Positions 12,664-43,935 of a stretch of DNA of 64,000 bases are shown piece after piece. The DNA lies in assembly GCF_046105845.1 (NCBI RefSeq), contig NZ_CP151004.1. One strand, 5' to 3'. Numbering within the stretch: the stretch's first letter is position 1; every line of letters starts with the position of its first letter. The translations under genes and the position numbers were made by a program. The DNA is from Escherichia coli (GTDB lineage: Bacteria > Pseudomonadota > Gammaproteobacteria > Enterobacterales > Enterobacteriaceae). The notes under the pieces are model-generated. The model worked only from the letters and a program-made list of their open reading frames with translations. It was not told where the DNA came from and did not search any database.

Positions 12664-13257
12664 ATGACTTCTCTGTATTTAGCTTCCGGTTCTCCGCGTC
12701 GTCAGGAGTTACTTGCGCAACTTGGCGTGACCTTTGAACGTATTGTTACGGGCATTGAGGAGCAGCGTCAGCCGCAGGAGAGCGCGCAGCAGTATGTTGT
12801 GCGTCTGGCGCGCGAGAAAGCACAGGCGGGTGTCGCGCAAACGACGCAGGATCTCCCGGTGCTGGGTGCGGATACTATCGTTATCCTGAACGGAGAAGTA
12901 CTGGAGAAACCGCGCGATGCAGAGCATGCGGTGCAGATGTTGCGCAAATTATCGGGTCAGACCCATCAGGTGATGACGGCCGTGGCGTTGGCCGACAGTC
13001 AGCACATTCTCGATTGCCTGGTGGTCACCGATGTGACTTTCAGAACGTTAACAGACGAAGACATCGCGGGCTATGTCGCCAGCGGTGAACCGTTAGATAA
13101 AGCAGGTGCATACGGTATTCAGGGGCTGGGTGGCTGTTTTGTCAGGAAGATAAATGGCAGCTATCACGCCGTAGTCGGCTTACCGCTGGTTGAAACGTAT
13201 GAATTATTAAGTAATTTTAACGCACTGCGTGAGAAAAGGGATAAACATGACGGCTGA
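12664..13257 (+). CDS. yhdE: Maf-family nucleoside triphosphate pyrophosphatase
   Basis: 197-aa ORF recognised as YhdE ([17 protein letters not shown]...). Confidence 0.92.
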
Positions 13258-14716
13258 ATTGTTAGTAAACGTAACGCCTTCGGAAACGCGAGTGGCGTAT
13301 ATTGATGGCGGTATTCTGCAGGAAATTCATATTGAACGTGAGGCGCGACGCGGAATAGTAGGCAATATCTACAAGGGTCGTGTAAGTCGTGTACTTCCGG
13401 GTATGCAGGCGGCTTTTGTAGATATTGGGCTGGATAAAGCCGCGTTTCTTCATGCATCCGATATCATGCCGCACACTGAATGTGTGGCGGGTGAAGAACA
13501 AAAGCAATTCACGGTACGCGACATCTCGGAACTGGTCCGTCAGGGGCAAGATCTGATGGTGCAGGTGGTGAAAGATCCGCTTGGCACTAAAGGTGCGCGC
13601 CTGACTACCGATATCACGCTGCCTTCTCGCTATCTGGTGTTTATGCCAGGGGCTTCTCACGTTGGGGTTTCCCAACGTATTGAAAGCGAATCAGAACGTG
13701 AACGCCTGAAAAAAGTGGTCGCAGAGTATTGCGACGAGCAGGGCGGGTTTATCATCCGTACCGCAGCTGAAGGGGTTGGCGAGGCTGAACTGGCCTCCGA
13801 TGCCGCTTATCTGAAACGCGTCTGGACCAAAGTGATGGAGCGTAAAAAGCGCCCGCAGACTCGTTATCAGCTGTACGGCGAACTGGCGCTGGCGCAGCGT
13901 GTTCTGCGTGATTTCGCCGACGCCGAACTGGATCGCATTCGCGTTGACTCACGCCTGACTTACGAAGCATTACTTGAGTTCACCTCGGAGTACATTCCCG
14001 AGATGACCAGCAAGCTGGAGCATTACACCGGACGCCAGCCGATTTTCGATCTCTTTGATGTCGAAAACGAAATTCAGCGAGCGCTGGAACGCAAAGTAGA
14101 ACTGAAATCCGGTGGCTATCTGATTATCGACCAGACCGAAGCGATGACCACCGTGGACATCAATACCGGAGCGTTTGTCGGTCATCGCAATCTGGACGAC
14201 ACCATTTTCAATACCAATATTGAAGCGACGCAGGCTATCGCTCGCCAGTTACGGTTGCGCAATCTGGGCGGGATTATCATTATTGATTTCATCGACATGA
14301 ATAATGAAGATCACCGTCGCCGCGTGTTGCATTCGCTGGAGCAGGCGTTGAGCAAAGACCGGGTGAAAACCAGCGTTAATGGTTTTTCGGCGCTGGGGCT
14401 GGTGGAGATGACGCGTAAACGCACCCGCGAAAGCATTGAGCACGTACTATGTAACGAATGCCCAACCTGCCACGGTCGCGGAACGGTGAAAACCGTGGAA
14501 ACGGTATGCTATGAAATCATGCGCGAGATTGTTCGTGTACACCATGCTTACGATTCCGACCGTTTCCTGGTCTATGCTTCTCCGGCAGTAGCCGAAGCCT
14601 TGAAAGGCGAAGAGTCACACTCGCTGGCGGAAGTGGAAATTTTCGTTGGCAAACAGGTTAAAGTACAAATTGAACCGCTCTATAACCAGGAGCAGTTTGA
14701 CGTCGTAATGATGTAA
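13247..14716 (+). CDS. rng: ribonuclease G
   Basis: ORF recognised as RNase G (CafA) with an S1 domain; start at the ATG at 13247 (MTAELLVNV...), overlapping the yhdE end by 11 nt. Confidence 0.94.
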
Positions 14717-22573: not shown

Positions 22574-24541
22574 ATGGGTATTTTCTCCATTGCTAACCAA
22601 CATATTCGCTTTGCGGTAAAACTGGCGACCGCCATTGTACTGGCGCTGTTTGTTGGCTTTCACTTCCAGCTGGAAACGCCACGCTGGGCAGTACTGACAG
22701 CGGCGATTGTTGCCGCCGGTCCGGCCTTTGCTGCGGGAGGTGAACCGTATTCTGGCGCTATTCGCTATCGTGGCTTTTTGCGCATCATCGGCACATTTAT
22801 TGGCTGTATTGCCGGACTGGTGATCATCATTGCGATGATCCGCGCACCATTATTGATGATTCTGGTGTGCTGTATCTGGGCCGGTTTTTGTACCTGGATA
22901 TCCTCGCTGGTACGAATAGAAAACTCGTATGCGTGGGGGCTGGCCGGTTATACCGCGCTGATCATTGTGATCACCATTCAGCCGGAACCATTGCTTACGC
23001 CGCAGTTTGCCGTCGAACGTTGTAGCGAGATCGTTATCGGTATTGTGTGTGCGATTATGGCGGATTTGCTCTTTTCTCCGCGATCGATCAAACAAGAAGT
23101 GGATCGAGAGCTGGAAAGTTTGCTGGTCGCGCAATATCAATTAATGCAACTCTGTATTAAGCATGGCGATGGTGAAGTTGTCGATAAAGCCTGGGGCGAT
23201 CTGGTGCGACGCACCACGGCGTTACAAGGTATGCGCAGCAACCTGAATATGGAATCTTCCCGCTGGGCGCGGGCCAATCGACGTTTAAAAGCGATCAATA
23301 CGCTATCGCTGACGCTGATTACACAATCCTGCGAAACTTATCTTATTCAGAATACGCGCCCGGAATTGATCACTGATACTTTCCGCGAATTTTTTGACAC
23401 GCCGGTAGAAACCGCGCAGGACGTCCACAAGCAGCTCAAACGCCTGCGGAGAGTTATCGCCTGGACCGGGGAACGGGAAACGCCTGTCACCATTTATAGC
23501 TGGGTCGCGGCGGCAACGCGTTATCAGCTTCTCAAGCGCGGCGTTATCAGTAACACAAAAATCAACGCCACCGAAGAAGAGATCCTGCAAGGCGAACCGG
23601 AAGTCAAAGTAGAGTCAGCCGAACGTCATCATGCGATGGTTAACTTCTGGCGAACCACTCTTTCCTGCATTCTGGGGACGCTTTTCTGGCTGTGGACGGG
23701 CTGGACTTCCGGCAGTGGTGCAATGGTGATGATTGCGGTAGTGACGTCACTGGCAATGCGTTTGCCAAATCCACGCATGGTGGCGATCGACTTTATCTAC
23801 GGGACGCTGGCCGCGCTGCCGTTAGGGCTGCTCTACTTTTTGGTGATTATCCCTAATACTCAACAGAGCATGTTGCTGCTGTGTATTAGCCTGGCAGTGC
23901 TGGGATTCTTCCTCGGTATAGAAGTACAGAAACGGCGACTGGGCTCGATGGGGGCGCTGGCCAGCACCATAAATATTATCGTGCTGGATAACCCGATGAC
24001 TTTCCATTTCAGTCAGTTTCTCGACAGCGCATTAGGGCAAATCGTCGGCTGTGTGCTCGCGTTCACCGTTATTTTGCTGGTGCGGGATAAATCGCGCGAC
24101 AGGACTGGACGTGTACTGCTTAATCAGTTCGTTTCTGCTGCTGTTTCCGCGATGACTACCAATGTGGCACGTCGTAAAGAGAACCACCTCCCGGCACTTT
24201 ATCAGCAGCTGTTTTTGCTGATGAATAAGTTCCCAGGGGATTTGCCGAAATTTCGCCTGGCGCTGACGATGATTATCGCGCACCAGCGCCTGCGTGATGC
24301 GCCGATCCCGGTTAACGAGGATTTATCGGCGTTTCACCGACAAATGCGCCGCACAGCAGACCATGTGATATCTGCCCGTAGCGATGATAAACGTCGTCGG
24401 TACTTTGGCCAGTTGCTGGAAGAACTTGAAATCTATCAGGAAAAGCTACGCATCTGGCAAGCGCCACCGCAGGTGACGGAACCGGTTCATCGGCTGGCGG
24501 GGATGCTCCATAAGTATCAACATGCGTTGACCGATAGTTAA
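22574..24541 (+). CDS. aaeB: p-hydroxybenzoic acid efflux pump subunit AaeB
   Basis: 655-aa polytopic membrane ORF recognised as AaeB. Confidence 0.92.
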
Positions 24542-24545
24542 GTCA

Positions 24546-24573
24546 AAACCGACGCCAAAAGCGTCGGTTTTTT
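24546..24573 (+). terminator. rho-independent terminator after aaeB
   Basis: ACCGACGC-CAAAA-GCGTCGGT hairpin followed by a T6 run. Confidence 0.8.
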
Positions 24574-24632
24574 CATGGCTATACTTAGCGATGAACGGCA
24601 GAACTCGCCGCGAAACGTGACGGTGGCAACAG

Positions 24633-24905
24633 ATGAATATTTATACCTTTGATTTTGATGAGATTGAGAGTCAGGAGGATTTTTATCGCGACTTCAGCCA
24701 AGCCTTTGGTCTGGCGAAAGATAAGGTACGCGATCTCGACTCACTATGGGATGTGTTAATGAACGATGTCCTGCCGCTACCACTTGAGATTGAATTTGTT
24801 CATCTGGGAGAGAAAACGCGTCGCCGTTTTGGCGCGTTAATATTGCTGTTTGATGAGGCAGAGGAAGAGCTGGAAGGGCATTTGCGTTTTAATGTTCGTC
24901 ATTAG
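24633..24905 (+). CDS. yhcO: barstar-like protein YhcO
   Basis: 90-aa ORF recognised as YhcO ([21 protein letters not shown]...). Confidence 0.88.
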
Positions 24906-24907
24906 CG

Positions 24908-24933
24908 CAAAAAAAAGCCCCCGAACCGGGGGC
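24908..24933 (-). terminator. rho-independent terminator after yhcN
   Basis: GCCCCCG-AA-CCGGGGGC hairpin preceded on the plus strand by an A-run, which is a T-run on the minus strand. Confidence 0.7.
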
Positions 24934-24960
24934 AATATCGTCGGACAAGACGATGAGGGT

Positions 24961-25224
24961 TTATTTGTACAGTTCAGCCGTAGCGTGCCAAGTGTCACCA
25001 CTACGAGCTTCCGTAATCTGGTAGGCCGTTGCGCCTTTCTCTTCCGCTTTTTTGTTCAGCATTTCACGCATATCCATTGGCGAAGACGCCACACCACTTA
25101 CGGATACGGTCCCGATTGCTTCACGATTTTGTGCTTGTGCAGCATCAATGGAGTCGGCAGCGAATGCACCGAAAGAGAGAACAGAAAGTACGCTTAATGC
25201 AGCAACAGTGGTTTTGATTTTCAT
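24961..25224 (-). CDS. yhcN: periplasmic stress protein YhcN (BhsA/YdgH family)
   Basis: 87-aa product with a signal peptide (MKIKTTVAALSVLSVLSFGAFA); start at the internal ATG of the 104-aa track ORF. Confidence 0.88.
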   Translation of the reverse strand: MKIKTTVAALSVLSVLSFGAFAADSIDAAQAQNREAIGTVSVSGVASSPMDMREMLNKKAEEKGATAYQITEARSGDTWHATAELYK

Positions 25225-25588
25225 GATTTTTACCTCGACATAATCTTTTAGCTGGGCCTTTGTTTCGTGACCCATATCACAAAATCAAGTATACACTAAT
25301 TGTTGGACTAATTAATACCACGCTAACTGTTTCAGTTGATACTAAGTGTTAAAAATGTGAATTTTAATAACAAAAAAGAATTAAAAACACGGTTATTTAT
25401 TATTAATTCTATTGTTTTCAATTAGATAATGAATTTTGCATAATGTGCTTTTTTTACCGTATGTATTCATTGTGTGAATGACATGTCGCAGTAAAACGCA
25501 CTATTCGTTAAATTAATCGCAGAGGAAAGCAGGGGGTTGAGAGGGATAAGCAACATTTTCCCCGCCGCCAGAAGCGACGGGGCAGAGA

Positions 25589-41749: not shown

Positions 41750-41824
41750 ATTTATTAGATCAGGTGTGACCTGACCCATCTTTGGCACAGAGCCAAACCT
41801 GAACTGACGGACCGCTCTGTGCCA

Positions 41825-42130
41825 TTACCTGACGTTGTATTCTTTTATGTTAACACCCTTGATACTGTATATACCTGTCCGCTTAATTCGCTTGCCCTTT
41901 TTATTCGTAATAGTTGCTGTAAGTGTACTGCAGCGAATGGAATGACGTTCATCAATCACCAGCCGAATTGCTTCTGAAGCATCTTCCACCTCTAGAAGGT
42001 CGTGAGTCTTATTTAAGCCGAATGGAACAAGGTGGAAGGCCGTTTTTCCAGATGATTTTCTGGTTATTTTTACTGGATACAACACATCACCACTTTTATG
42101 GATTAATTCAAGCTGTTCAATGTAAATCAT
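41825..42130 (-). other. AT-rich degenerate ORF downstream of the yhcG-like fragment
   Basis: 101-aa ORF in the same frame as 42218-42574 but separated from it by two in-frame stops; markedly AT-rich; no motif recognised. Confidence 0.25.
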
Positions 42131-42217
42131 GGCAACTTTCCTTCGTTTATCTGCATGAATATATAAACCGAAAATAGGAGATGCAATACAAAAGCTGTGG
42201 AAATATCAAATAGCCTC

Positions 42218-42574
42218 TCAATTTGGCAGACAGCGTCTGCCAAATCTTTGCCGATGGGAATTCTGCAGAATTTCAACATGTTGATAAAAAAGGTAAAAAA
42301 GCTTCATTTGGCGTAAGTTTTTTGCAGAGACCCCACGTTTATACCGTCGACTTAAATCCTGCGATAACCGATCAATCAGCTGTGCAGCATAAGCCGCTCT
42401 TGCCTCGCCGCCTTGTTCAAATTCGACAATTCGTCGGCCAATTTCCCAGTATGTGGCGGTCATTAACGCGTTAACACTACGTACCGTTTCCGTCCGGGCG
42501 CTATCGACCAGGTGAATAATACCGTCGTGGATTTGCTGGTAGCCTGTTGAGGTTCTCTCTGAGAGCGATTCCAT
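42218..42574 (-). pseudogene. yhcG-like (DUF1016-family) N-terminal fragment, probably a gene remnant
   Basis: 118-aa ORF whose sequence (...VNALMTATYWEIGRRIVEFEQGGEARAAYAAQLIDRLSQDLSRRY...) resembles the N-terminal domain of YhcG/DUF1016 proteins; it ends in stops with no PD-(D/E)xK domain. Confidence 0.4.
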
Positions 42575-42727
42575 TATCTGTCCCTTTATATGGCGCTGCG
42601 TTGAATAATGGAATCAGCTATACGCCGGGCATCTACCGGTAACAATCCAGATGAGCGTATTACATTGGTTTTCTTCACATTATGCGAGGCACCTTCCAGC
42701 GAGGTGTCACGTTGTGGTGAAGATAAA

Positions 42728-42760
42728 TCAAAAAAGGCCGGAGCGGGCGTATCCGGCCAG
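42728..42760 (-). terminator. rho-independent terminator of the five-gene operon
   Basis: GGCCGG...CCGGCC hairpin 7 nt after the vWA gene stop, followed on the minus strand by a T6 run. Confidence 0.8.
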
Positions 42761-42765
42761 AATTT

Positions 42766-43935
42766 TCAGGCGGTTTCTCTTGCTGTCACTACGCCATTTT
42801 GCGCAGCCCACAGATTCACATCTTCCTTACGAATGGCGGCGGCCATCATGCCGGGGAATAAATCTGGGGTACAGGCAAAGGAGGGAATACCCATGGCGGC
42901 GAGTTTTCCTGCCAGTGACCGGTCGTAAAACGGCGCACCTTCATCGCTTAAGGCCAGCAGGGTAACCACCTGTACGCCGGACTGAATCAACTCACTGGCG
43001 CGTTGCAACAGATTGCGTTCCACCCCGCCTTCGTAGAGGTCGGAAATCAGCACCAGAATGGTATTGCGCGGATCGCGAATCAAAGACTGGCAGTAGCCCA
43101 CCGCGCGGTTGATGTCGGTGCCGCCACCCAGCTGTACGCCAAACAGCAGCTCTACCGGATCGTCGAGCTTCTCTGTCATATCAACGACTGCGGTGTCGAA
43201 AACCACCAGATGCGTTTTTACCGCCGGGAGCGATGCCATTACTGCGCCAAAAATACTGGAATAGACCACCGAGGAGGCCATCGACCCACTCTGGTCGATA
43301 CATAAAATGATCTCCTTTTGCGTGCGTTGAGACTTGCGCCCGTAGCCGATCAGCGTTTCAGGAACAATACTTTTATACTCTTCCTGCCAGTGGCGCAGGT
43401 TGGCGCGAATGGTGCGCTGCCAGTCAATTTCCGCGTGGCGCGGGCGACGATTACGTACCGCACGATTAAGAGCGCCGCTTACCGCGCTACGCATTGGCTC
43501 TTCAAGCTGTTTCATCAATTGCTCGACAACTTTACGCACCACAAGCCTGGCGGTTTCTTTGGTTTTGGCCGGAATTACGCCATTCAGCGACATCAGCGTG
43601 GAGACCAGATGAACATCAGGCTGGACGTTTGCCAGCATCTCTGGCTCCAGCAGCATACTGTGCAAATTAAGACGTTCAAAGGCGTCTTTTTGCATCACCT
43701 GAACCACAGAAGAAGGGAAATACTGGCGAATATCACCCAGCCAGCGAGCGACTTTGGGTGACGATCCACCCGTGCCGCCGCGTAATCCATGTTTACCGTC
43801 TGGCTGATAGAGCGCCGCCAGCGCGGCATCAATCGCGGACTCTCTGGCATCCAGCGCCACGTTACAGGCATTGTCGGCATCTTCTCCAAGGATCAGACGC
43901 CAGCGGCGCAGCCGTTCCATTTCGTTACTCGACAT
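42766..43935 (-). CDS. von Willebrand factor A (vWA) domain protein with an intact MIDAS motif; gene 5 of the operon
   Basis: 389-aa ORF with ILCIDQSGSM (DxSxS), a downstream GGGTD and LISDLYEGG; AAGGG Shine-Dalgarno; start overlaps the upstream gene by 11 nt. Confidence 0.8.
   Translation of the reverse strand: MSSNEMERLRRWRLILGEDADNACNVALDARESAIDAALAALYQPDGKHGLRGGTGGSSPKVARWLGDIRQYFPSSVVQVMQKDAFERLNLHSMLLEPEMLANVQPDVHLVSTLMSLNGVIPAKTKETARLVVRKVVEQLMKQLEEPMRSAVSGALNRAVRNRRPRHAEIDWQRTIRANLRHWQEEYKSIVPETLIGYGRKSQRTQKEIILCIDQSGSMASSVVYSSIFGAVMASLPAVKTHLVVFDTAVVDMTEKLDDPVELLFGVQLGGGTDINRAVGYCQSLIRDPRNTILVLISDLYEGGVERNLLQRASELIQSGVQVVTLLALSDEGAPFYDRSLAGKLAAMGIPSFACTPDLFPGMMAAAIRKEDVNLWAAQNGVVTARETA

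What the first reader, a model, noticed from the sequence alone, without database searches (positions are those of the whole stretch)
24633..24905. Stand-alone barstar-like gene with no adjacent nuclease
yhcO encodes a barstar-family inhibitor but no barnase-like toxin gene is nearby; its neighbours are aaeB and the convergent yhcN. It may be an orphan immunity gene against incoming toxins. This arrangement is known from K-12 but its function is unexplained.
Basis: partly seen in the sequence, partly recalled or inferred. Interest (0 to 1): 0.25.

Follow-up and report, generated by a model that had tools for sequence, protein, structure and literature searches.

The report
Widowed barstar gene yhcO
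E. coli yhcO is a ribonuclease-inhibitor gene that has outlived its partner: related bacteria still carry a secreted barnase-type ribonuclease gene directly upstream at the same chromosomal site, E. coli's lineage deleted it, and selection has kept the inhibitor for a purpose still unknown.

Summary
Window 24633-24905 (+) is an intact 90-codon ORF, E. coli yhcO. It matches Pfam Barstar (38.6 bits, cutoff 23.4), and crystal structures exist (2CX6, 5F4C). No barnase-like ORF occurs in the 64-kb window.

The gene is not an acquired orphan. About 70 of 80 related loci, from Serratia, Yersinia, Hafnia, Edwardsiella, Xenorhabdus, Photorhabdus, Providencia and others, have a PF00545 barnase-type RNase. 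It carries an export signal and ends 0-5 nt before the yhcO homolog. In Yersinia and Hafnia the order is aaeB-aldH-RNase-barstar. In Citrobacter and Enterobacter it is aaeB-aldH-yhcO. In E. coli and Klebsiella it is aaeB-yhcO. So yhcO is a vertically inherited "widow".

It is still under selection: dS is saturated between genera and dN/dS is about 0.05-0.1. It is present in 5425 of 5426 E. coli genomes. Constraint loosened only in the RNase-binding helix (pN 0.246 vs 0.088 in paired relatives, p=1e-5). The acidic hot-spot residues stay acidic.

Literature reports RpoS-dependent, acid-induced and LldR-activated expression. A Salmonella deletion of the barstar-domain gene STM3363 swarms more. 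The present target is unknown.

This is a known gene of a known family with a modestly new origin story, so interest is low to moderate.

The parts
24633..24905 (+). yhcO coding sequence (90 aa plus stop), a barstar-family protein
   Evidence: The ORF is listed. It matches Pfam PF01337 at 38.6 bits. It differs at 1 of 90 residues from PDB 2CX6. An AF2 model has pLDDT 95.9, TM 0.99 to 2CX6 and TM about 0.8 to barstar 1BRS_D. RefSeq annotates it as yhcO.
24720..24770 (+). Codons 30-46: the segment equivalent to barstar's barnase-binding loop and helix alpha2 ([17 protein letters not shown])
   Evidence: In the alignment to barstar, D35, W38 and D39 correspond to D36, W39 and D40. The motif FGxNLDALWDxxT is invariant in 69 RNase-paired homologs but variable in 88 widowed homologs. 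Nonsynonymous divergence here is 2.8 times higher in the widowed clade, p=1e-5.
24579..24587 (+). CTATACTTA, a predicted sigma-S-type extended -10 element 46 nt upstream of the yhcO start codon
   Evidence: This is the only occurrence in the window. It is conserved at the same position after the aaeB terminator in K. pneumoniae and K. oxytoca. It fits published RpoS dependence of yhcO. The match to the sigma-S consensus comes from my own knowledge, and the promoter itself was not tested. The generic sigma-70 scan found no promoter here.
24545..24574 (+). Intrinsic terminator of aaeB (11-bp stem followed by a U-run), which separates yhcO from the aae operon
   Evidence: It folds at -16.9 kcal/mol with z=-5.55 against shuffles. 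It is conserved in Klebsiella.
24622..24626 (+). GGTGG, a weak Shine-Dalgarno-like element 6 nt before the ATG
   Evidence: Read directly from the sequence. The corresponding position in RNase-paired species holds the last codons of the RNase gene (..ATGGAGTAA..), which supply GGAG. Homology over so few bases is only a hint.
24917..24933 (.). GC-rich hairpin between the convergent yhcO and yhcN genes. It is followed by U8 on the - strand, so it is the yhcN terminator; it is possibly bidirectional
   Evidence: Found by the terminator scan and supported by folding. A second hairpin at 24936-24955 followed by a T-rich tail may terminate yhcO.

Best explanation
yhcO is the surviving inhibitor half of an ancestral two-gene operon: a secreted barnase-type RNase followed by its intracellular inhibitor, barstar.

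Shown:
- In most other Enterobacterales families a PF00545 RNase lies 0-5 nt upstream of the yhcO homolog. It has an N-terminal export signal or anchor and intact catalytic residues.
- The flanks are syntenic: tldD-RNase-barstar, or aaeRXAB-aldH-RNase-barstar.
- In the sampled Enterobacteriaceae the RNase gene has been cleanly removed (aaeB-aldH-yhcO). In E. coli and Klebsiella aldH has gone too, leaving a 91-bp spacer that holds the aaeB terminator and a sigma-S-type -10 box.
- The loss order is forced. An RNase without its inhibitor is lethal, so only the RNase can go first. Two further, recent RNase losses show the same outcome.
- The widowed gene has not decayed. It is a core gene, synonymous sites are saturated between genera, and dN/dS is about 0.05-0.1.
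- The N- and C-terminal parts evolve at the same rate as in paired barstars. Constraint relaxed about 3-fold only in the RNase-binding loop and helix.
- D36, W39, E75 and E79 remain invariant, and position 40 stays acidic (D or E).

Inferred: YhcO still works as barstar does. It is a small acidic cytoplasmic protein that plugs a basic RNA-binding cleft stoichiometrically with helix alpha2 and the alpha4 glutamates. It no longer needs extreme affinity for a resident enzyme. It is made from its own stress and stationary-phase promoter. It most likely serves as a low-cost safeguard against barnase-type RNases of foreign origin reaching the cytoplasm, or against another basic partner not yet identified. 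The present-day target is not known.
For: Identity and fold.

Adjacent RNase in relatives: PF00545 lies directly upstream of 45%-identical homologs downstream of yhdP and tldD. In 80 loci from one-genome-per-species contigs, about 70 have the RNase ending 0-5 nt before the barstar. Pfam confirms the RNases at 56-58 bits. Their alignment to barnase keeps the catalytic Glu, Arg and His and adds a hydrophobic N-terminus.

Synteny and stepwise deletion.

Independent losses: Chimaeribacter arupi keeps the last ~26 nt of the RNase gene. 'Hafnia psychrotolerans' keeps a 3' pseudogene fragment (tblastn E=5e-5) that lacks the catalytic DHY.

No RNase in E. coli: none in the window. In 5,426 genomes the RNase part of a Serratia RNase-barstar DNA query matched nothing.

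Selection. For the alpha2 segment, pN is 0.246 vs 0.088 at equal pS of 0.67 (Fisher p=1e-5). The other regions do not differ (p=0.54 and 0.56). The core-motif entropy is 0.01 bit in paired sequences against 0.60 in widowed ones.

Core-gene status.

Expression: RpoS-dependent, acid-induced, and LldR-bound and LldR-activated. The CTATACTTA box is conserved with Klebsiella.

Phenotype without any RNase: the Salmonella STM3363 deletion swarms more.
Against: No biochemical test of RNase inhibition by YhcO was found in the searchable literature.

The widowed clade carries fixed changes next to the binding helix: G32 to V, and a one-residue insertion (L47). It has also lost the otherwise invariant F31, N34, A37 and T43. 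Its Pfam scores have dropped from 56-58 to 32-41 bits. It may therefore no longer bind barnase-type enzymes at all.

The secreted RNases of neighbouring bacteria have no obvious route into the E. coli cytoplasm. No barnase-type domain was seen on Enterobacteriaceae plasmids or on phages.

The absence of a barnase-type RNase elsewhere in E. coli genomes rests on a DNA-level search of limited sensitivity and on general knowledge.

The sigma-S promoter is a sequence match only.
Confidence: 0.6

Rival explanations
1. Exaptation. After the RNase was lost, YhcO was recruited to a different cellular partner, for example another basic RNA- or DNA-binding protein or an endogenous BECR-fold toxin. It would then act as a stress-phase regulator and no longer as an inhibitor of barnase-type RNases.
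For: V32 and the L47 insertion are fixed and diagnostic of the clade, and the canonical FGxN..A..T positions have been lost. The rest of the protein is exactly as constrained as in paired barstars. The gene has acquired its own sigma-S-type promoter and has stress, lactate and acid regulation. A Salmonella deletion of the barstar-domain gene STM3363 changes swarming although no RNase is present.
Against: No partner is known. The binding segment shows relaxation (pN/pS 0.37), not a new pattern of strong conservation. The classical acidic hot spots are all retained. The swarming phenotype is mild and its mechanism is unexplained.
Confidence: 0.28
2. YhcO is a true orphan immunity gene of the polymorphic-toxin kind, maintained specifically to neutralise barnase-domain effectors injected by competitors through T6SS, CDI or Rhs systems.
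For: [quoted passage not shown] The DxxxD motif and the glutamates are conserved. Interface variability could in principle reflect an arms race.
Against: The gene is vertically inherited, syntenic and core, and is nearly invariant within E. coli. It is not in an island or next to any toxin cassette. pN/pS in the interface stays well below 1. There are no barnase-type domains on Enterobacteriaceae plasmids or on phages. It does not match PADLOC.
Confidence: 0.1
3. Non-functional relic. yhcO is simply a leftover gene decaying slowly, with no present function.
For: The cognate partner is gone. The interface constraint is relaxed and Pfam scores are falling. No strong phenotype is known.
Against: The ORF is intact in every sampled genus of the family and in 5425 of 5426 E. 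coli genomes. Synonymous sites are saturated while dN is 0.08-0.2. Two-thirds of the protein is as constrained as in paired barstars. Expression is regulated.
Confidence: 0.02

Closest known systems
Barstar of Bacillus amyloliquefaciens (PF01337; PDB 1BRS, 1A19), the intracellular inhibitor of the secreted RNase barnase
   Same: The length is the same (89-90 aa) and so is the alpha/beta fold: TM about 0.8 and rmsd about 2.0 A. The acidic hot spots correspond: D35, W38, D39, E76 and E80 match D36, W39, D40, E75 and E79. The protein is strongly acidic, with 21 D+E against 10 K+R.
   Different: Sequence identity is only about 24% (22 identical aligned residues). Y29, T42 and W44 are replaced by D30, M43 and D45. 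There is no RNase gene in cis or, as far as tested, anywhere in the genome. The gene has its own stress promoter instead of operon expression.
Chromosomal RNase-barstar pairs of other Enterobacterales (e.g. the Yersinia pestis YPO3690-type inhibitor, and the Serratia 'ribonuclease N/Ba' with its barstar)
   Same: They are orthologous by synteny (aaeB-aldH-[RNase]-barstar, or tldD-RNase-barstar). Identity is 50-57%, and the C-terminal half (RRRFGA(L/I)(I/V)[16 protein letters not shown]) is nearly the same.
   Different: They keep the invariant FGxNLDALWDxxT motif and a translationally coupled RNase gene. YhcO has KVR(D/N)LDSLWD, an extra residue after the helix, and no RNase.
Orphan immunity or antitoxin genes of polymorphic toxin and T6SS systems
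   Same: It is an inhibitor gene without its toxin gene, and cross-protection against non-self toxins is conceivable.
   Different: Those genes are typically accessory, island-borne, variable between strains and often horizontally acquired. yhcO is core, syntenic, vertically inherited and nearly invariant within the species.

Membership tests
Barstar family (Pfam PF01337 / Imm-Barstar) | Sequence match to the family profile above the curated threshold | tested here: met
   38.6 bits against a cutoff of 23.4, E=1.1e-9. This is lower than the 56-58 bits of RNase-paired orthologs.
Barstar family (Pfam PF01337 / Imm-Barstar) | Barstar alpha/beta fold (three-stranded parallel sheet with four helices) | tested here: met
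   Crystal structures 2CX6 and 5F4C exist. The AF2 model (pLDDT 95.9) has TM 0.99 to 2CX6 and TM 0.78-0.81, rmsd about 2.0 A, to barstar chains.
Barstar family (Pfam PF01337 / Imm-Barstar) | DxxxD motif on helix alpha2 plus the acidic alpha4 residues that plug the RNase active site | tested here: met
   D36, W39, D40, E75 and E79 align with barstar D35, W38, D39, E76 and E80. D36, W39, E75 and E79 are invariant in 88 widowed sequences. Position 40 is D or E in all but one.
Barstar family (Pfam PF01337 / Imm-Barstar) | Encoded next to, and co-expressed with, a barnase-family RNase (PF00545) | tested here: not met
   There is no such ORF in the window or upstream in any sampled Enterobacteriaceae. 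The feature is met at the orthologous locus in about 70 other Enterobacterales species. This is a feature of the system, not of the protein family as such.
Barstar family (Pfam PF01337 / Imm-Barstar) | Tight 1:1 inhibition of a guanyl-specific microbial RNase | not testable with these tools
   No biochemical report was found in the searchable literature.
Orphan immunity gene of polymorphic toxin / T6SS / CDI systems | Located in a variable island or array next to toxin cassettes or secretion-system genes | tested here: not met
   The neighbours are aaeRXAB, yhcN, argR, mdh, degS and degQ, all core genes.
Orphan immunity gene of polymorphic toxin / T6SS / CDI systems | Presence/absence or sequence polymorphism between strains; horizontal acquisition | tested here: not met
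   It is present in 5425 of 5426 E. coli genomes at >=95% identity (one at 90-95%). Synteny with other families indicates vertical descent. It is not on true plasmids.
Orphan immunity gene of polymorphic toxin / T6SS / CDI systems | Protects against a non-self toxin delivered by competitors | not testable with these tools
   This needs competition assays. There are no barnase-type domains on Enterobacteriaceae plasmids or on phages, but chromosomal Rhs and CdiA C-terminal domains were not surveyed.

The most novel reading that the evidence does not exclude
After losing its RNase, YhcO was re-purposed. The fixed G32V change, the L47 insertion and the new sigma-S promoter would mark recruitment to a new basic partner, such as an endogenous RNA-binding protein or a BECR-fold toxin. 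That would make it a stress-phase regulator, a case of an immunity protein exapted into core physiology and consistent with the swarming phenotype in Salmonella.
Probability: 0.28. Interest if true: 0.55.

Novelty: already known. Interest (0 to 1): 0.3.

Why it matters
The gene, its family and its fold are already in the databases, so the finding itself is not new.

What this analysis adds is an explanation for why a lone barstar sits in the E. coli core genome. It is the inhibitor left behind when an ancestral secreted-RNase/inhibitor operon lost its RNase. This is a one-way process, because the RNase can be lost safely but the inhibitor cannot.

The case is unusually clean. Intact pairs, a pseudogene stage and old widows all sit at one syntenic locus. 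That lets one measure what happens to an inhibitor's binding surface once its target disappears.

It also turns "function unknown" into concrete tests: does YhcO still inhibit the Serratia, Yersinia or Proteus enzyme, and what does it bind in stationary phase?

Tried and rejected
(1) I looked for a hidden barnase-like ORF in the window using tblastn, phmmer and a small profile against all six frames. Only noise came back.

(2) I looked for a remnant of the RNase gene in the 91-bp aaeB-yhcO spacer of E. coli, and in the spacers of Klebsiella and Salmonella. Nothing was significant. There is a ~10-nt resemblance of the Shine-Dalgarno region to the RNase 3' end, but it is too short to count.

(3) I searched E. 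coli genomes with Serratia RNase-barstar DNA. Only the 3' part of yhcO matched. The sensitivity of this search is limited.

(4) I searched plasmids and phages for barnase-type RNases that E. coli might meet. None were on Enterobacteriaceae plasmids (the two 'Proteus' records are 4-Mb chromosomes), and none were in phages.

(5) NCBIfam, PADLOC and PHROGs gave no hits for YhcO.

(6) Literature searches on yhcO found only transcriptome tables plus the Salmonella swarming study.

(7) I considered a fused RNase-linker-YhcO AlphaFold run to test docking, but rejected it. AF2 is insensitive to the few interface substitutions, and no coordinates or interface scores are returned, so the result would not discriminate.

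(8) I tested positive selection as the cause of the interface variability.

Full report
**Observation**

The ORF list shows an ATG-initiated 90-codon ORF at exactly 24633-24905 on the + strand. It matches Pfam Barstar (PF01337) over residues 1-81 at 38.6 bits, against a gathering threshold of 23.4.

The window is E. coli chromosome. A 1-kb stretch around the gene is 100% identical to strain PCN033 and occurs in 5425 of 5426 complete E. coli genomes, nearly all at >=95% identity. There the gene is annotated 'yhcO: barstar family protein'.

- aaeR/aaeXAB lie upstream, and aaeB ends at 24541.
- yhcN lies convergent downstream.
- argR, mdh, degS and degQ follow.

It returned only noise, with best E-values of 0.25-0.9.

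The proposed check by structure prediction is already answered by experiment. PDB 2CX6 is E. coli YhcO and 5F4C is the Salmonella ortholog. An AF2 model (pLDDT 95.9) superposes on 2CX6 at TM 0.99, and on barstar chains at TM about 0.8 and rmsd about 2.0 A.

**What it is: a widowed barstar**

An exhaustive HMMER search of 1.84 billion cluster representatives found only 111 relatives at E<=1e-3, so this is a narrow subfamily.

Homologs at 45% identity sit in the order yhdP - CN-hydrolase - tldD - PF00545 ribonuclease - barstar. In E. coli, yhdP and tldD lie just upstream of the aae operon. That suggested shared ancestry of the locus.

I then ran a scan of one genome per species with a family alignment. 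It returned 80 loci, which I annotated with marker proteins from the window.
- About 70 loci have a barnase-type RNase gene ending 0-5 nt before, or slightly overlapping, the start of the yhcO homolog.
- They come from Serratia, Yersinia (including Y. pestis), Rahnella, Ewingella, Rouxiella, Hafnia, Edwardsiella, Xenorhabdus, Photorhabdus, Providencia, Arsenophonus, Pragia, Limnobaculum, Erwinia and Pantoea.
- Three Bacteroidota metagenome bins are also among them.

Pfam confirms these RNases at 56-58 bits. They align with barnase over the whole catalytic domain, keep the catalytic Glu, Arg and His, and carry a basic-then-hydrophobic N-terminus typical of an export signal or anchor. These are classical 'secreted RNase plus intracellular inhibitor' pairs.

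**Synteny gives the history**
- In Morganellaceae and Budviciaceae the order is tldD-RNase-barstar.
- In Serratia it is aaeR-aaeXAB-RNase-barstar.
- In Yersinia, Rahnella, Ewingella, Hafnia and Chimaeribacter an aldehyde dehydrogenase gene (PF00171) lies between aaeB and the RNase.
- In Citrobacter koseri, Enterobacter, Pseudenterobacter and two unnamed Enterobacteriaceae the order is aaeB-aldH-yhcO. The RNase is missing and yhcO starts 29-50 bp after aldH.
- In Salmonella only a remnant of the aldH 3' end is left.
- In E. coli and Klebsiella aldH has gone too. What remains is an 80-90-bp spacer containing the aaeB terminator (-16.9 kcal/mol, z=-5.6) and the sequence CTATACTTA.

Two independent, recent RNase losses show the process in action.
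- Chimaeribacter arupi lacks the RNase but keeps its last ~26 nt, identical to those of C. californicus, which has the intact gene.
- The record titled Hafnia psychrotolerans keeps a 3' RNase pseudogene fragment (tblastn E=5e-5) with the catalytic DHY deleted.

The direction of loss makes biological sense. From what is established for barnase and barstar, the RNase is lethal without its inhibitor. The pair can therefore only decay RNase-first.

**Is any RNase left for it in E. coli?**
- None is in the window.
- Serratia RNase-barstar DNA searched against 5,426 E. coli genomes matches only the 3' part of yhcO. This is a DNA-level search, sensitive only above about 65-70% identity.
- tblastn of the RNase domain against 72,556 plasmids hits only Bacillus, Clostridium, one Acetoanaerobium and one Aerococcus record, plus two 4-Mb 'Proteus' chromosomes. 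Those chromosomes also carry the adjacent barstar.
- tblastn against 50,697 phage records finds nothing.
- The 120 best homologs of the Serratia RNase include no Escherichia, Salmonella, Klebsiella or Citrobacter names. Only the top 120 of 563 hits were visible.
- That E. coli K-12 has no N1/T1/barnase-family RNase is also general knowledge.

**Is the widow still under selection?**

Between genera of Enterobacteriaceae, synonymous sites are saturated (dS >=1 or undefined) while dN is 0.08-0.20. Where dN/dS can be computed it is about 0.04-0.09, the same range as for RNase-paired barstars, 0.04-0.17. The ORF is intact in every sampled genus.

The pattern of constraint has changed in one place only.
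- In 69 distinct paired sequences the motif FGxNLDALWDxxT is essentially invariant. Its mean entropy is 0.01 bit against 1.50 for the rest of the protein (p=5e-6). This motif corresponds to barstar residues 30-42, the barnase-binding loop and helix.
- In 88 widowed sequences the same positions are no more conserved than the rest (0.60 vs 0.51, p=0.71). Segment 29-46 is the most variable part of the protein.

Counts of substitutions in phylogenetically independent pairs make this quantitative:

| Region | pN, widowed | pN, paired | Test |
|---|---|---|---|
| alpha2 segment, codons 29-46 (pS 0.67 in both) | 0.246 | 0.088 | Fisher p=1e-5 |
| N-terminal, codons 1-28 | 0.159 | 0.143 | p=0.54 |
| C-terminal, codons 47-89 | 0.104 | 0.117 | p=0.56 |

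pN/pS in the relaxed segment is about 0.37. The constraint is loosened, not abolished, and there is no sign of positive selection at this resolution.

The central hot spots survive. D36, W39, E75 and E79 are invariant. Position 40, equivalent to barstar D39, is Asp in most lineages and Glu in the Citrobacter freundii and Leclercia groups. Two changes are fixed and diagnostic of the widowed clade: G32 to V, and a one-residue insertion (L47) after the helix. Pfam scores fall from 56-58 bits in paired proteins to 32-41 bits in widowed ones.

**Expression and phenotype (from the literature)**
- yhcO is RpoS-dependent in E. coli O157 (PMC2907692).
- It is induced by rapid acid shift together with yhcN (PMC2270276).
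- It is bound and activated by LldR (PMC10272880), a paper that states its function 'remains unknown'.
- It is mildly induced by a cathelicidin-derived peptide.
- The CTATACTTA box at 24579-24587 is unique in the window and conserved in Klebsiella. By my knowledge of the consensus it matches the sigma-S extended -10. The generic sigma-70 scan found nothing there.
- In Salmonella, a clean deletion of STM3363 increased swarming without changing flagellar number (PMC4534456). The authors describe STM3363 as a hypothetical protein with a barstar-like domain. I infer that it is the yhcO ortholog from gene-number order and because all Salmonella hits are yhcO orthologs.

**Mechanism**

Shown: the family, the fold, the retained acidic hot spots, the ancestral partnership with a secreted barnase-type RNase, the deletion of that partner, continued purifying selection, and relaxation restricted to the binding helix.

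Inferred: YhcO still acts as an acidic plug for a basic RNA-binding cleft, but without a resident target and without the need for extreme affinity. It is now produced from its own stress-phase promoter.

Its present target is unknown. The two live options are a safeguard against barnase-type RNases of other bacteria, and a new cellular partner.
- Safeguard: many gut and environmental Enterobacterales secrete the ancestral-type enzyme, but a route into the cytoplasm is unclear.
- New partner: suggested by the fixed clade-specific changes, the new regulation and the swarming phenotype.

A purely decaying relic is very unlikely given the selection data.

**Comparison with what is known**

YhcO is a member of the barstar family by sequence, fold and motif. 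The only 'system' feature it fails is the adjacent RNase.

It does not fit the usual profile of an orphan immunity gene of polymorphic toxin systems (Zhang et al. 2012, PMC3482391). It is core, syntenic, vertically inherited and nearly invariant within the species. It is absent from true plasmids and unknown to PADLOC and PHROGs.

**Verdict**

The finding is real but concerns an annotated gene with solved structures, so its novelty is 'already known'. The origin story and the measured, interface-specific relaxation are, as far as the searchable literature shows, not described. They make the open question directly testable. Interest is low to moderate (0.3).

Noticed in passing
L055:5930-6000 (Chimaeribacter arupi) vs L056:5559-5996 (C. 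californicus); L066:5900-6000 (record titled Hafnia psychrotolerans): There are two independent, recent losses of the RNase gene with the barstar retained. C. arupi keeps only the last ~26 nt of the RNase. L066 keeps a 3' pseudogene fragment (tblastn E=5e-5) with the catalytic DHY deleted. The L066 barstar and flanks look like those of Ewingella, so the organism label may be wrong.
   Followed up: partly
L087:2830-3000 (Salmonella enterica), compared with L088:1523-2971 (C. koseri aldH): The Salmonella aaeB-yhcO spacer still contains a recognisable remnant of the 3' end of the aldehyde dehydrogenase gene, which is intact at this position in Citrobacter, Enterobacter and Yersinia. E. coli and Klebsiella have lost it completely. 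The locus shows stepwise gene loss.
   Followed up: partly
L038:3881-4936 (Yersinia pestis NCTC5923): The aldH homolog between aaeB and the RNase matches only residues 5-356 of 482 in Y. pestis, whereas other Yersinia match full length. It may be a pseudogene in Y. pestis.
   Followed up: no
L065, L074, L086 (Sphingobacteriales, Niabella, Porphyromonadaceae MAGs): Three Bacteroidota metagenome bins carry RNase-barstar pairs whose barstar is 36-41% identical to YhcO and whose RNase is 47-58% identical to the enterobacterial query RNases. This suggests cross-phylum transfer of the whole pair or deep conservation.
   Followed up: no
L011 (422-bp contig in a Hydrogenophaga intermedia assembly): This tiny contig encodes the aaeB 3' end and a yhcO that is 70% identical to E. 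coli's. It is almost certainly Enterobacteriaceae contamination in a betaproteobacterial assembly.
   Followed up: no
L073 (record titled Enterobacter cancerogenus M004) and L077 (Erwinia sp. S63): The 'Enterobacter' record has an RNase-paired, Erwinia-like barstar (31% identity to YhcO) in a non-aae context, matching L077 in layout and identity values. It is probably a naming problem (formerly Erwinia cancerogena) and not an Enterobacteriaceae genome that kept the RNase.
   Followed up: no
P0213 (255-aa metagenomic protein): A YhcO-like barstar domain (residues 173-251) is fused to an unrelated ~170-residue N-terminal region. This is the only clear multi-domain member among the 111 representatives.
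   Followed up: no
window 24961-25275 (- strand): The mechanical ORF for yhcN is 104 aa, from an upstream ATG. RefSeq annotates 87 aa starting at MKIKTT (about 24964-25227). Salmonella and one other Enterobacteriaceae locus carry two tandem yhcN paralogs here.
   Followed up: no
window ~13247-14716 (rng) and ~41809-42936 (yhcG): Two unrelated nuclease genes lie in the window: RNase G about 10 kb upstream and a PDDEXK-domain protein about 17 kb downstream. Neither is barnase-like, and neither is linked to yhcO in other genomes examined.
   Followed up: partly
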